A DNA stretch of 64,000 bases, from NCBI RefSeq assembly GCF_009914755.1, contig NC_060926.1, one strand, 5' to 3'. Source of the stretch: the human T2T-CHM13v2.0 reference genome, Homo sapiens. The translations under genes were made by a program, and so were the position numbers. Position 1 is the first letter of the stretch; each line of letters starts with the position of its first letter. Under the pieces are notes generated by a model. That model had not been told where the DNA came from, ran no database searches, and saw only the letters and a program-made list of their open reading frames with translations. Positions 47,481 to 52,055 of this stretch are shown here, in pieces.

Positions 47481-48014
47481 AAAGCTCTGCAATGGTTTGG
47501 GAAAGTAAAATAGCAACAAGGGAAACAATGATACAATTCTGCTTAAAATATGTCCTATGGATTCATATGTCCCCTAACATATTCAGAATGCAGACATTAC
47601 CTGGCCTTCAGAAAGCTGAAGATACCAAGGGTCAAAAAAAAGGTCTAACAAACCTACTTCACGTGTTATCTTTAGCATCCATTGTCCTTTTTATAGCAGT
47701 CTCAGTATCAAAGATCAGGAAAGGATGAGTGAATTAATAAACTTGATACAAAGGAAACTTCTTTGATGAGGTGAGATGGGCCATTCTCAAGATATTTTTA
47801 GTTTGCTCAAATTAAAAGAGAAGAGCTGAGAGCTTAAAACAATTATTTTTTAGGAGAAAGAAAACAATAGAATATTATGTGAAATAATTGAGTGTGATGA
47901 GAAGCACTAAATATCTTTTTGTTAAGTATGAGCAACTACCTGTTAATTTTGTTTTATGTACATTTTCATATGCTAGGTGAATTTAGTTTGGTAAATTCTA
48001 TTCACTCACAACTG
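47481..48014 (+). repeat. Left arm of long inverted repeat (partner 51508-52055)
   Basis: Hand alignment to the reverse complement of 51508-52055; 39-nt perfect core 47698-47736 / 51799-51837. Confidence 0.93.
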
Positions 48015-49103
48015 GATTTACTAGGCCTTATACAAACTTTCCAAATATTTCTTGTGAAGATGCAAATATTTTAAATTCTCAAAGCCCTGCATTCAACCTA
48101 TGGATTATACCACATTACAATGCAACTGTCACACCAATGGGTAAGGAAATCCAGCCTTGCCAAACCTAGGGCTGCTGTGCTCAGCGTTCACAAACAGCAG
48201 GTGGAATTCAATATGTACCAGTATTAAACTTTGTTCTTTTTGTAAGTAGCCCAGTTGAGTAAAAAAAAAAATATTGAGGGAGTAAAACTTAGAAAGCATT
48301 TTTAAAGGACACCAATCAGTTCGTTAACCATGGGTGAAATGCGAGCTTGTTGCAGATGAGTTGTTCAGACAGTGACAGTAGGTCCTTTGATAAGGAAAAT
48401 ACTAGCTAGCTCATCACCAGGGCATGAGGAGCTAAAGAGAGAGGACATAAATTATACTCTACATTATTTCACTTAGGTGAGACAAAGAAATTACACACTG
48501 CCCAGTAGCCAGAAATACCTAAGAAAAGCAGAAACAGCTCCTAAATGCCATGACTGTCTGGAACCTCTCATGCATTACGGCCTCAGACCTTTGACTATTT
48601 TCTGAACATTTGATTGAATTCGCTGCTGTCAAGTAGGCAGCAGCCAAGAGCTCCCATTGCCACAGCTCAAAGGGGACTCCAGCTATACTGGAGTAGGAGA
48701 CAGGCTTAGGGCAGGCCTAGGGAAATTGAGAGTCAAGGGCCTTTATAATCAATCCAGCCTCAAATTGCCCTTTAGTTTTAAATCTCGTTACTGATCTATA
48801 AAATTTATAAGACATTGTGCTAGGTGATGAGAGGACTACGTGAGCTGGTCCCTGCCCTCTCAAAGCTTGCAATCAAGTTGTGGAAACAAGGCTCATACCC
48901 AAGAGATAGGCTACAAGCATCCATATGTAATAATACATATACAATAATTAATAGCCACATTTAATGTGCCAGTCACTGTGCTAACCACTGAAAGGGTTTT
49001 GTCAATAAATTCTGACAGAAGCCTTCTACCAGAGGCATTATTATTACTCTTCCCAGTATACAATTAAAGAAACAGTCTAGGGGAGATTAAGAAACCTGCC
49101 TTA

Positions 49104-49381
49104 GGCTGGGCACAGAGGGAGGCAGAGGCACACAGATCACTTGAGCCCAGGAGTTTGAGACCAGCCTAGGCAACGTGGCAAGACCCTGTTTCCACAAAAA
49201 TTGTAAAAATTAGCCTGGAATGGTGGTGCGTGCCTGTAATCCCAGCCACTCAGGAGGATGAGGTGGGAGGATTGCCTGAGCCCAGGGAGGTCCAGGCTAC
49301 AGTGAGCCGTGACTGCACCACTACACTCTAGCCTGGGTGTTGGAGTGAAACCCTGTTTCAAAAAAAAGAAAAGAAAAAAAA
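49104..49381 (+). mobile_element. AluJ inserted in a MIR
   Basis: Diverged dimer; TSD ~GAAACCTGCC; MIR-like flanks at ~48945-49100 and ~49385-49460. Confidence 0.85.
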
Positions 49382-49576
49382 GGAAACCTGCCCTAGAGCT
49401 GCAGTTAATAAATTGAAAAGCCAGGACTGGAACCCAAGCAATCGGGTTCCAGAGCCAGTACTCGTCATCAGAAGACTGATGATTTAATTATTGTGTTATT
49501 TATTACCATGGACATACAGATCTAATTTATAGTCACTTATTATATAATGATGCTAATTCATTCACTGATTTCTCCT

Positions 49577-49886
49577 TTTTATTTATTTCTTTATTTGAGA
49601 CAGGATCTCACTCTGCTGCCCAGGCTGTGGAGTGCAGTAGCGCAATCATAGCTCACTGTAGCATCTACCTCCTGGGCTCAAGCAATCCTCCCAACCCCAG
49701 CCTCCCAAGTAGCTGGGACCACAGGCACATACCACCACACCCAGCTATTTTTTGTTGTTGTTGTTGGTAGAGACGGGAGTCTCACCATATTGCCCAGGCT
49801 GGTCTCAAACTCCTGGGCTCAAAAGATCCTCCTGCCTTAGCTTCCCAAAGCATTGGGATCACAGGCATGAGCCACTGAACTCAGCT
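49577..49886 (-). mobile_element. AluJ
   Basis: Reverse-strand diverged Alu. Confidence 0.87.
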
Positions 49887-50041
49887 TCATTCACTAATTT
49901 ATACCTGGGTTTATGTAGCTATAATCCTGGGAAGGATTGAATACGTTATAGTTTTCATCATTTGCATTTGTATAAGGAAATTCAATTTACTTCCACAGGA
50001 AATTACAAATATAATGCACTGTTTTAGTGTTAATTTTTTAC

Positions 50042-50333
50042 TTTTTTTATTTTTATTTTTTTAGACAGGGTCTTGCTCTGTCACCCAGGCTGGAGTGCAG
50101 TGGCATGATCTAGGCTCACTGCAACCTCCGCCTCCTGATTCTTGTGCCTCAGGCTCCCAAGTAGCTAGGATTACAGGCTTGTGCCACCATGTCTGGTTAA
50201 TTTTTGTACTTTTAGTAGAGATGGGGTTTCACCATGTCGGCCAGACTGGTTGTGAACTCCTGGCCTCATGCAATGCACCCACCTCAGCCTCCCAAAGTGC
50301 TGGGATTACAGGCATGAGCCACTGTGCCTAGCC
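50042..50333 (-). mobile_element. AluS
   Basis: Reverse-strand Alu. Confidence 0.87.
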
Positions 50334-51037
50334 TTCAACTTAATTTCTGTAGAAAAAGCCCAGAAATTATGTGAAAAGTGTCACCATTTTCTGATGGATG
50401 CATTATTTGAATAACTAAAGATGCAAATTACAAGTTTTTCATACCCAAACTCAATTTCCAATATTGCTGCCATTTCATTGAATATGCAAAACTTTTGTTT
50501 CCTGCCTCAACTCCTGTTAAAGTCCAGTAAAACCTTCATGCACATCTTATTGTGAGTCACACTTCCAAAGGATTAGAGCCATAGAGGTGTGTTATGATTA
50601 AGACAACATACTTAACATGAAATCCAGCTATTCAGAGACAAATCAGTTAGTTTCTATGAAGTTTTGTTAAATCCAGAGTGCACTATTTCTGACGATGCCA
50701 CTTGTTTGACAGAGATCACTGAGAAAGAGTACTGTGGCACTGTTGCTGAAACTAGCCCCTTTAATTCAACCTATATTTGCTTAGTAATGGTCAAAAGAAG
50801 CCGCAGTTCCAGGAGGATGCACTCTGCAGGAAATGCCTCAAGCACTATTAGCTCAAGATGTAGTCGAGTGTAACCACAGTGGTCTACTCTATCAGCTGTC
50901 ATGCACAGCTGCTCTGGGAATCCAGCTGCCACAGTGTTTGACCTCTTTAAAAAAAAATTATGATAAATCTGCAAAAATAAAAGATTAACCTTAGAAGTAC
51001 TCACTCATATACCCGATAATGAGAGGTAAAATTCAGG

Positions 51038-51333
51038 TTTTTTTTGTTTTTTGAGACAGAGTCTCGCTCTGTCGCTCAGGCTGGAGTCCAGTGGCGCCAT
51101 CTTGGCTCACTGCAAGCTCCGCCTCCCGGGTTCACGCCATTCTCCTGCCTCAGCCTCCCGAGTAGCTGGGACTACAGGTGCCCGCCACCAAGCCTGGCTA
51201 ACTTTTTGTATTTTTAGTAGAGACGGGGTTTCACCGTGTCAGCCAGGATGGTCTCGATCTCCTGACTTCGTGATCTGCCCGCCTCAGCCTCCCAAAGTGC
51301 TGGGATTACAGGCGTGAGCCACCGCGCCCAGCC
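51038..51333 (-). mobile_element. AluY
   Basis: AluY diagnostics; TSD AATTCAGGTT. Confidence 0.9.
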
Positions 51334-51507
51334 AATTCAGGTTCTTGTTATTGGTTACAGCCATTTGACCTCAGTCTTAGAAATAATATTTAAATTATTT
51401 TCACTTTTCCCTCTGACTTGTGTGACTTGATATTGCTTTAGACATTTAAAAAATAATTTTAATACATTATAATTTAATAAAGAACGAAATGATAGCATTT
51501 CTGTCCA

Positions 51508-52055
51508 CAGTTGAGAGTGAATAGAATTTGCCAAATGAAATTCACCTTGCATATGAAAATATGGATAAAATTAACAAATAATTGCTCATACTTAACAACA
51601 AAAAGATATTAAGTGCTCTTGATCATTCCCAATTATTTCACAGAATATTCTATTGTTTTGTTTCTCCTAAAGAAAAATAATTCAATTTTAAGCTCCCAGC
51701 TCTTCTTTTCTGTCTCTTTTAATTTGAGCAAATTAAAAATACCTTGGGAAGGGTGCATCTCACCCCATCAAAGAAGTTTCCTTTGTAAGCAAGTTTACTA
51801 ATTCACTCATCCTTTCCTGATCTTTGATACTGAGACTACTACAAAAAGGACAACGGATGCTAAAGATCACACATGCAGTAGGTTTGTTAGACCTCAGTTT
51901 TTTCACCCTCCCTATCTTCAGCTTTCTGAAGCAGGCGATGTCTTTACATTCTGAATATGTTAGGGAACATTTGAATCAATAGGACATATTTTAAACAGAA
52001 TTGTATCATTGTTTCCCTTGTTGCTATTTACTTTCCAAAACTATTACAGTACTTT
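51508..52055 (-). repeat. Right arm of long inverted repeat (partner 47481-48014)
   Basis: Reverse complement aligns colinearly with the left arm, with ~50 substitutions and several small indels. Confidence 0.93.

What the first reader, a model, noticed from the sequence alone, without database searches (positions are those of the whole stretch)
47481..52055. ~540-bp inverted repeat of apparently unique sequence flanking 3.5 kb just upstream of the HNRNPLL promoter
Seen: 47481-48014 aligns end to end with the reverse complement of 51508-52055. My hand alignment gives ~50 substitutions plus small indels (~85-90% identity), rising to ~93% over 47641-47778, with a 39-nt perfect core (AGTCTCAGTATCAAAGATCAGGAAAGGATGAGTGAATTA). 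The arms match no Alu, L1, MaLR or MER family I recognise. Established: MIRs predate the eutherian radiation. Inference: the spacer contains a MIR, so its sequence is much older than ~10% arm divergence implies. This fits either a local inverted duplication in primates or an older pair kept similar by gene conversion or selection. Possible roles are a >500-bp RNA duplex (ADAR/Dicer/Staufen substrate, or a clamp promoting back-splicing or skipping) in a transcript crossing the region, or an NAHR substrate for a 3.5-kb inversion next to the promoter of a splicing regulator.
Basis: partly seen in the sequence, partly recalled or inferred. Interest (0 to 1): 0.85.

Follow-up and report, generated by a model that had tools for sequence, protein, structure and literature searches.

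The report
Old two-copy inverted duplication upstream of HNRNPLL
A 0.54-kb stretch of otherwise unique human DNA is present twice, in opposite orientations, around 3.5 kb just upstream of the HNRNPLL gene; it looks like an old, evenly decayed relic of one primate duplication event, with no sign of a present function.

Summary
Window 47481-48014 aligns end to end with the reverse complement of 51508-52055: 472 matches, 54 mismatches and 10 indel events, which is 89.7% identity in aligned columns and 84.9% with gaps. BLAST E is 1e-174.

The arms occur only twice in the whole assembly. As a control, the neighbouring LTR drew 5868 candidates from the same tool.

The borders are sharp. I found no target-site duplication, coding frame, Pfam match or Rfam match.

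The differences are spread evenly (P=0.74), and the 39-nt perfect core is what chance predicts (P=0.33). This gives no sign of gene-conversion tracts or a conserved core. K2P distance is 0.111±0.016, which I read as roughly 25-55 million years.

The spacer holds four Alus plus 2232 bp of non-Alu sequence. At least one Alu looks older than the duplication.

Best reading: a relic of one local inverted duplication in anthropoid primates, decaying as unconstrained DNA would. It arose either by a template switch or by a staggered-break micro-inversion. The RNA-duplex and NAHR roles are physically possible but unsupported. No annotated transcript spans the arms. Cross-species and population data could not be reached.

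The parts
47481..48014 (+). Arm A of the inverted repeat (534 bp, 33% G+C, 1 CpG). It starts 1640 bp upstream of the HNRNPLL transcription start at 45841.
   Evidence: Alignment; BLAST; only 2 genome copies; composition; distance.
51508..52055 (-). Arm B of the inverted repeat (548 bp, 33% G+C, 2 CpG), the reverse-complement copy of arm A.
   Evidence: Alignment; only 2 genome copies; nhmmer finds only the partner arm (E 7e-104) apart from one chance-level match at E 0.65.
48015..51507 (.). Spacer of 3493 bp: four Alus (1261 bp) plus 2232 bp of non-Alu sequence that is single-copy at the sensitivity of the genome search.
   Evidence: spacer pieces 49389-49480 and 50344-51035 match only themselves in the assembly.
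47698..47736 (+). The 39-nt perfectly shared core (partner at 51799-51837). Its length is what chance predicts for this level of divergence.
   Evidence: Position; permutation P=0.33.
49106..49388 (+). Alu in the spacer, shortened at its 5' end. It splits a MIR-like stretch; the MIR call is from memory only.
   Evidence: Multi-copy within the window (up to 41 hits); sequence.
49565..49886 (-). Old Alu in the spacer, 13.6% diverged from the window's Alu consensus at non-CpG sites. It looks older than the arm duplication.
50013..50343 (-). Alu in the spacer, 8.2% non-CpG divergence from the window consensus.
51036..51360 (-). Young Alu in the spacer, 5.8% non-CpG divergence. It probably inserted around or after the duplication.

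Best explanation
The two arms are paralogues from a single local rearrangement in an anthropoid primate ancestor, roughly 25-55 million years ago. That event copied about 0.54 kb of unique, AT-rich, non-coding DNA in inverted orientation a few kb away, and both copies have since decayed as unconstrained DNA would. At that time the spacer was at least 2.2 kb of non-Alu sequence plus the older Alus.

Two one-step mechanisms give the same present-day structure:
- (a) A replication or repair template switch that inserted an inverted copy without touching the spacer. I lean slightly to this.
- (b) A micro-inversion with one staggered break, which duplicates the sequence between the staggered nicks at both ends of the inverted segment. 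This is the model proposed for Drosophila inversions.

Today the pair is most likely inert. It is too diverged and too widely spaced to extrude a cruciform, it is a poor NAHR substrate, and it can form double-stranded RNA only if a transcript crosses all 4.6 kb.

Shown here: the repeat itself, its copy number of two, its sharp borders, its even decay, and the lack of coding or Rfam signal. Inferred: the date, the mechanism and the lack of function.
For: - The arms align end to end at 89.7% identity with sharp borders and no further homology in the window.
- Each arm has only 2 candidates and 2 matches in the 3.1-Gb assembly. The positive control, the adjacent LTR, gave 5868 candidates.
- K2P is 0.111±0.016. 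The 64 differences are evenly spread (P=0.74), the longest perfect run is at chance (P=0.33), there are 10 indel events, and transitions to transversions are 31:23.
- Each copy has diverged about 5.5%. That equals the youngest Alus of the window (5.0-5.8%) and is far below the spacer Alu at 49591-49875 (13.6%). The spacer therefore predates the duplication.
- There is no Rfam family. No stop-to-stop frame exceeds 116 aa. Pfam matched 0 of 4 translated frames.
- A precedent for mechanism (b) comes from the passages I read of Ranz et al. 2007 (PMC1885836). There, 17 of 29 Drosophila inversions carry inverted duplications of non-repetitive sequence at their breakpoints. [quoted passage not shown] Mean identity is about 88%, median length is 321 bp and the maximum is about 1.9 kb.
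Against: - No outgroup genome could be consulted. The date, the direction of copying and the ancestral spacer orientation are therefore all untested.
- The date uses substitution rates recalled from memory (1.0-1.5e-9 per site per year gives 37-55 My). The alternative clock is a crude Alu consensus built from a mixture of subfamilies, which suggests a younger date.
- Lack of function is argued from absence: no annotated transcript, no RNA family, and decay that looks neutral. No expression, editing, chromatin or population data were available.
- The genome search is blind to ancient repeats. The MIR-like piece found only itself. The progenitor sequence could itself be an unrecognised ancient repeat, though that would not explain 90% identity between just these two copies.
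Confidence: 0.75

Rival explanations
1. The pair still acts as a recombination substrate. The arms mediate inversion of the 3.5-kb promoter-proximal segment, through NAHR or single-strand annealing, either as a human polymorphism or somatically.
For: - The geometry is right: inverted arms of more than 500 bp lie 3.5 kb apart.
[quoted passage not shown] Only 1 of 9 inversion-flanking Alu pairs exceeds 90% identity, so diverged short repeats can flank real inversions.
- The abstract of Ait Saada et al. 2023 (PMC10164571) reports from yeast that in long single-stranded DNA, Alu inverted repeats spaced 12 bp or 30 kb apart are similarly unstable, and that only heterology beyond 25% suppresses the instability.
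Against: - The longest identical tract is 39 bp and mean identity is 85-90%. From memory, mammalian homologous recombination falls steeply below a few hundred bp of perfect identity.
- In the same preprint, inversion-flanking L1 pairs have a median identity of 97.2%, and recurrence scales with repeat length.
- There are no conversion tracts between the arms.
- No paper links HNRNPLL to an inversion at this locus. The only chr2 inversion found in the text of Aguado et al. 2014 (2 occurrences of 'chr2', none of '2p22') lies at 241 Mb.
- Full inversion call sets were not seen. The bioRxiv supplements are closed and the Cell version is not held.
Confidence: 0.07
2. The arms work as RNA. A transcript crossing the whole 4.6 kb folds into a duplex of about 490 bp that is edited by ADAR, cut by Dicer or bound by Staufen, and this influences HNRNPLL expression. 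Such a transcript could be upstream antisense RNA from the HNRNPLL promoter on the + strand. It could also be a - strand RNA started in the THE1-like LTR at 52094-52767, which points toward the gene.
For: - Co-folding the two arms gives -665 kcal/mol (+ strand) and -703 kcal/mol (- strand), with 484 and 494 inter-arm base pairs. Shuffled-partner controls give -209 to -233 kcal/mol.
- A solo LTR lies 38 bp outside arm B, on the same strand as HNRNPLL. From memory, LTRs of this class sometimes act as alternative promoters.
Against: - The RefSeq table supplied with the finding lists no exon or transcript beyond 45841.
- A + strand RNA would have to read through 11 AATAAA/ATTAAA hexamers, and a - strand RNA through 12 between the two arms.
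- There is no Rfam family.
- The arms decay evenly, with no compensatory or conserved core.
- The duplex energy only restates the sequence similarity.
Confidence: 0.04
3. The pair is much older than its divergence suggests and has been kept similar by gene conversion or purifying selection.
For: This cannot be excluded without orthologues. The arms lie within a few kb of a CpG-island promoter, where regulatory constraint is plausible.
Against: - Differences per 50 columns are 6, 4, 8, 6, 3, 4, 7, 5, 9, 8, 4, with chi-square P=0.74.
- The longest perfect run is at chance (P=0.33).
- There are 10 indel events totalling 30 bases.
- Conversion normally leaves long identical tracts, and selection leaves unevenness. 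Neither is seen.
Confidence: 0.06
4. The arms are two copies, or the terminal inverted repeats, of a mobile element: a low-copy DNA transposon with long terminal repeats, or two independent insertions of a rare repeat.
For: An inverted-repeat-flanked unit superficially resembles a transposon with long terminal inverted repeats.
Against: - Only these two copies exist in the assembly at the tool's sensitivity.
- There is no target-site duplication. The outer flanks read ...CATTGGCA on the left and CCTCACCC... on the right.
- The flanks show no similarity to each other.
- There is no transposase-like frame.
- The interior holds an Alu that looks older than the arm divergence.
- Two independent insertions of a two-copy element within 5 kb of a 3.1-Gb genome are very improbable.
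Confidence: 0.03

Closest known systems
Inverted duplications of non-repetitive sequence at inversion breakpoints (staggered-break model, Ranz et al. 2007, PMC1885836; passages read)
   Same: Ancestrally unique, non-repetitive sequence is duplicated in inverted orientation at the two ends of a segment. One-sided duplication is common there (12 inversions). The size range there (46 bp to about 1.9 kb, median 321 bp) and mean identity (about 88%) closely match this pair's 534-548 bp and 85-90%.
   Different: Those cases are megabase-scale Drosophila inversions shown to be inverted against outgroups. Here the enclosed segment is only 3.5 kb, the organism is human, and whether the spacer was inverted at all is untested.
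Human segmental duplications or low-copy repeats that mediate NAHR inversions (Aguado et al. 2014, PMC3961182; Porubsky et al. preprint)
   Same: Two-copy, locus-specific inverted paralogues flank a short unique segment. The arm length exceeds the 200-bp flanking-repeat criterion used in the preprint.
   Different: The arms fall below the usual annotation threshold for segmental duplications, which I recall as at least 1 kb and at least 90% identity. The inverted repeats of validated inversions listed in the passages shown are 2.7 kb or longer and contain near-identical tracts, for example 782 bp at 99.9%. Here the longest identical tract is 39 bp, and no inversion allele is known.
Inverted Alu pairs as double-stranded RNA and ADAR substrates
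   Same: Two inverted copies within a few kb could pair if co-transcribed. The predicted duplex has 484-494 bp.
   Different: The arms are not Alus or any multi-copy repeat. They lie in unannotated intergenic DNA rather than an intron or 3' UTR, and no transcript or editing evidence is available.
Template-switch (fork-stalling or microhomology-mediated) inverted duplications
   Same: An inverted copy placed a short distance from its source, with two novel junctions and no transposon hallmarks.
   Different: I could see no junction microhomology (read), though tens of millions of years of decay would erase it. The short template-switch events I recall from print are mostly under 100 bp.

Membership tests
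Interspersed repeat family (transposable-element copies) | Many dispersed copies in the genome | tested here: not met
   Each arm has 2 candidates and 2 matches in the 3.1-Gb assembly. The control LTR had 5868 candidates. Caveat: the tool misses very old repeats.
Interspersed repeat family (transposable-element copies) | Insertion hallmarks: target-site duplication, poly(A) tail, or TG...CA / terminal inverted repeat ends | tested here: not met
   The sequences at the four borders show no target-site duplication and no poly(A). The flank comparisons gave chance-level scores for 11 of 12 pairs.
Annotated segmental duplication (at least 1 kb and at least 90% identity; threshold recalled from memory) | Length of at least 1 kb and identity of at least 90% | tested here: not met
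   The arms are 534 and 548 bp. Identity is 89.7% without gaps and 84.9% with gaps.
Inversion-coupled inverted duplication (staggered-break model) | Non-repetitive sequence duplicated in inverted orientation at both ends of a segment | tested here: met
Inversion-coupled inverted duplication (staggered-break model) | The enclosed segment is inverted relative to outgroup species that have a single copy | not testable with these tools
   No other primate or mammal genome is held. Only the window's own assembly could be searched.
NAHR-competent inverted repeat flanking a polymorphic inversion | [quoted passage not shown] | tested here: met
   The arms are 534 and 548 bp. The criterion is from the preprint passages.
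NAHR-competent inverted repeat flanking a polymorphic inversion | A long tract of near-perfect identity in which exchange can occur | tested here: not met
   The longest perfect run is 39 nt, and there are 64 differences in 536 collapsed columns.
NAHR-competent inverted repeat flanking a polymorphic inversion | Both orientations observed among haplotypes | not testable with these tools
   Only one assembly was available. Literature searches found nothing for this locus. The large call-set tables were not seen.
Transcribed inverted repeat forming double-stranded RNA | Both arms lie inside one transcript | tested here: not met
   The RefSeq table supplied with the finding lists no exon or gene over 47481-52055. 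This tests the annotation only; no RNA data were available.
Transcribed inverted repeat forming double-stranded RNA | The arms can pair stably | tested here: met
   Co-fold energies are -665 and -703 kcal/mol, against about -220 for shuffled partners.

The most novel reading that the evidence does not exclude
The pair is the breakpoint scar of a roughly 3-kb micro-inversion that arose with a staggered break in an anthropoid ancestor and flipped promoter-proximal DNA of the splicing regulator HNRNPLL. It also still matters today. Either it toggles the orientation of that segment in some haplotypes or cells, or it forms a roughly 490-bp RNA duplex in rare upstream transcripts driven by the LTR or the HNRNPLL promoter.
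Probability: 0.05. Interest if true: 0.5.

Novelty: new member of a known kind. Interest (0 to 1): 0.15.

Why it matters
As it stands, this matters little. Small, old, two-copy inverted duplications fall below the thresholds of the segmental-duplication and repeat annotations as I recall them, so pairs like this one probably go unlisted. This example shows what unconstrained decay of such a pair looks like. It would matter more in two cases. First, if outgroup genomes show that the spacer was inverted when the copy arose, it would be a dated, sequence-level primate example of the staggered-break mechanism known from flies, sitting next to a promoter. Second, if haplotype or RNA data show that the pair still recombines or forms double-stranded RNA.

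Tried and rejected
- Phage-collection search with arm A: no match, and not informative for a human locus.
The genome search with 49389-49480 found only itself. The MIR call therefore rests on my recall, and I used an Alu clock to date the spacer instead.
- Extending the repeat beyond its borders: none of 12 flank comparisons extended the repeat. The best score was 47378-47444 against the reverse complement of 51401-51476 (P about 0.01 from 200 mononucleotide shuffles). It is AT-rich, not colinear with the repeat, and not significant after 12 tests.
- Junction microhomology for a template-switch origin: none seen by eye at either novel junction. This is uninformative after this much divergence.
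- Coding or RNA-family content: Rfam gave 0 matches over 46000-53500. There were 20 stop-to-stop frames of 60 aa or more, the longest 116 aa and lying across the Alu at 49106-49388. Pfam gave 0 families for the 4 frames I submitted out of those 20. There was one trivial tandem repeat.
- Inversion catalogues: the only chr2 inversion found in the text of Aguado et al. 2014 is at 241 Mb. The Cell version of Porubsky et al. is not held and the preprint's supplements are closed. The two readable supplements of the 2026 inversion benchmark (35,069 characters) contain no number beginning 38611 to 38616. That is too small a text to count as a negative.
- Literature: 16 papers hold both 'HNRNPLL' and 'inversion'. 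None of the 15 listed concerns a structural inversion at this locus, judged from titles and abstract openings.
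Full report
**1. The observation.**
The repeat finder on 46500-53500 returned 17 inverted pairs. Seven are colinear pieces of one long repeat and ten are Alu-Alu pairs.

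A gapped local alignment joins the pieces into 47481-48014 against the reverse complement of 52055-51508. It has 472 matches, 54 mismatches, and 10 gap events covering 30 bases. Identity is 89.7% over aligned columns and 84.9% with gaps.

BLAST of 44000-56000 against the whole window gives this pair at E=1.2e-174. No other non-self hit falls in 46000-48700, so the borders are sharp.

The 39-nt core lies at 47698-47736 and 51799-51837, and identity over 47641-47778 is 92.8%. A self-comparison of the full window shows this to be the only low-copy duplicate of 200 bp or more in the 64 kb.

**2. Copy number.**
The window's own 3.1-Gb assembly was searched with arm A, with arm B (E up to 10), and with 46600-49105. 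Each search gave 2 first-look candidates and 2 matches: the query itself and the partner arm.

As a positive control, the 275 bp just outside arm B gave 5868 candidates, of which 40 were scored at 91-94% identity. The tool therefore sees ordinary repeat families.

It does not see very old ones. The MIR-like piece 49389-49480 found only itself. The safe statement is that the arms belong to no family with copies of comparable similarity. The progenitor sequence could still descend from an unrecognisable ancient repeat.

**3. Surroundings.**
The arms begin 1640 bp upstream of the HNRNPLL start at 45841, and the far end is 6214 bp away.

The 3493-bp spacer holds four Alus totalling 1261 bp, at 49106-49388, 49565-49886, 50013-50343 and 51036-51360. 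The remaining 2232 bp are non-Alu sequence, and the pieces I tested are single-copy in the assembly.

Just outside arm B lies a solo LTR at 52094-52767 on the minus strand. I recognise it as THE1/MaLR-like from memory. It is interrupted by an Alu at about 52331-52635 and flanked by GTCAC/GTCAT. It is an independent insertion 38 bp from the arm, not part of the repeat.

**4. What the arms are not.**
- There is no Rfam family at gathering score over 46000-53500.
- There are 20 stop-to-stop frames of at least 60 aa in 47400-52100, and the longest is 116 aa.
- Pfam gave 0 families for the 4 arm-overlapping frames I submitted.
- The outer borders carry no target-site duplication and no poly(A) tail.
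- Of 12 flank-to-flank comparisons, 11 scored at chance. One AT-rich match reached P about 0.01. It is not colinear with the repeat and does not survive multiple testing.

**5. How the copies have evolved.**
There are 31 transitions and 23 transversions. The p-distance is 0.103 and K2P is 0.111±0.016. G+C is 33% in both arms, with only 1 and 2 CpGs.

The 64 differences (54 substitutions and 10 indel events) fall in 50-column bins as 6, 4, 8, 6, 3, 4, 7, 5, 9, 8, 4, giving chi-square P=0.74. Under random placement the longest perfect run averages 36 nt, with a 95th percentile of 53. The observed 39 nt is ordinary (P=0.33).

There is therefore no conversion tract, no conserved core, and frequent indels. 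The pattern is that of two copies decaying without constraint.

**6. Dating.**
Each copy has diverged by about 5.5%. I measured a clock inside the window: non-CpG divergence of 25 Alus from their own majority consensus. Values run from 5.0% to 23.1%. The spacer Alus score 5.8%, 8.2% and 13.6%. The fourth, at 49106-49388, was too short for the filter.

The duplication is thus about as old as the youngest Alus in the window and younger than at least one spacer Alu. The consensus mixes subfamilies, which inflates the values by a few percent. With recalled human-lineage rates of 1.0-1.5e-9 per site per year, K2P 0.111 gives 37-55 My. I quote 25-55 My, which lies within anthropoid primates.

It also rules out a once-tight palindrome later split by insertions, because 2.2 kb of non-Alu spacer remains.

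**7. Mechanism of origin (inferred).**
Two one-step routes give arm, spacer, inverted arm:
- (a) A template switch during replication or repair copies 0.54 kb from the opposite strand and returns. This inserts an inverted copy and leaves the spacer unchanged.
- (b) An inversion whose one end was a staggered break. Fill-in duplicates the sequence between the nicks at both ends of the inverted segment.

Route (b) has a close precedent. In the passages I read of Ranz et al. 2007, 17 of 29 Drosophila inversions carry inverted duplications of non-repetitive sequence at their breakpoints. In 12, only one breakpoint region is duplicated. Mean identity is about 88%, median length is 321 bp and the maximum is about 1.9 kb.

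The two routes differ only in the ancestral orientation of the spacer, which needs an outgroup genome. None is held here. I lean slightly to (a) because of the very short distance, but the split is close to even.

**8.
*RNA duplex.* If co-transcribed, the arms pair: -665 kcal/mol on the + strand and -703 kcal/mol on the - strand, with 484 and 494 inter-arm pairs. Shuffled partners give about -220 kcal/mol. This only restates the similarity.

The supplied RefSeq table has no transcript over the region. A + strand RNA from the bidirectional promoter would meet 11 poly(A) hexamers before the end of arm B. A - strand RNA would meet 12 between the arms. The LTR points toward the arms and the gene, and it is the only candidate upstream start I can name. 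Nothing shows that it fires.

*NAHR.* The arms exceed the 200-bp flanking-repeat criterion used in the Porubsky et al. preprint. In that study only 1 of 9 inversion-flanking Alu pairs exceeds 90% identity, so diverged repeats can flank real inversions. However, inversion-flanking L1 pairs there have a median identity of 97.2%, and recurrence scales with repeat length. The validated human inversions listed in the passages I saw of Aguado et al. 2014 involve repeats of 2.7 kb or more with near-identical tracts, and the only chr2 inversion found in the text is at 241 Mb, not 2p22.

Yeast work shows that widely spaced repeats with up to 25% heterology become unstable only within long single-stranded DNA (abstract). 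With a longest identical tract of 39 bp and no conversion tracts, exchange between these arms must be rare at best.

**9. Literature.**
The first search required 2 of 3 terms, and none of the 15 papers it listed contains 'HNRNPLL'. Sixteen papers hold both 'HNRNPLL' and 'inversion'. None of the 15 listed concerns a structural inversion at this locus, judged from titles and abstract openings. The large inversion call sets sit in supplements I could not open. Those tables could still hold a call at this locus.

**10. Verdict.**
The feature is real and exactly as described, and it is not a transposable-element pair. It is best explained as a relic of one local inverted duplication in anthropoid primates that has decayed without constraint. 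The kind is known, and this instance is apparently undescribed. I found nothing that points to a function. Interest is low unless outgroup or haplotype data reveal an inversion.

Noticed in passing
window 52094-52767 (- strand): A solo LTR, THE1/MaLR-like by my recall, with 5868 first-look relatives in the assembly. An Alu at about 52331-52635 is inserted in it, and it is flanked by a 5-bp duplication GTCAC/GTCAT (4 of 5 bases match). It lies 38 bp outside arm B and points toward the arms and the HNRNPLL promoter.
   Followed up: partly
window about 48900-49105 and 49389-49470: A MIR-like stretch split by the Alu at 49106-49388.
   Followed up: partly
window 47378-47444 vs reverse complement of 51401-51476: A weak AT-rich similarity between the outer flank of arm A and the inner flank of arm B (score 23 against a shuffle mean of 14; P about 0.01 from 200 shuffles, one of 12 comparisons). 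It is not colinear with the inverted repeat and is probably low-complexity chance.
   Followed up: partly
window about 53290-53470 (+ strand): A stretch ending in an A-rich tail that looks like the 3' end of an L1 element. This is from memory only.
   Followed up: no
window 50020-50063: A 23-bp unit repeated 1.9 times (80% matches) at the T-rich edge of the Alu at 50013-50343.
   Followed up: no
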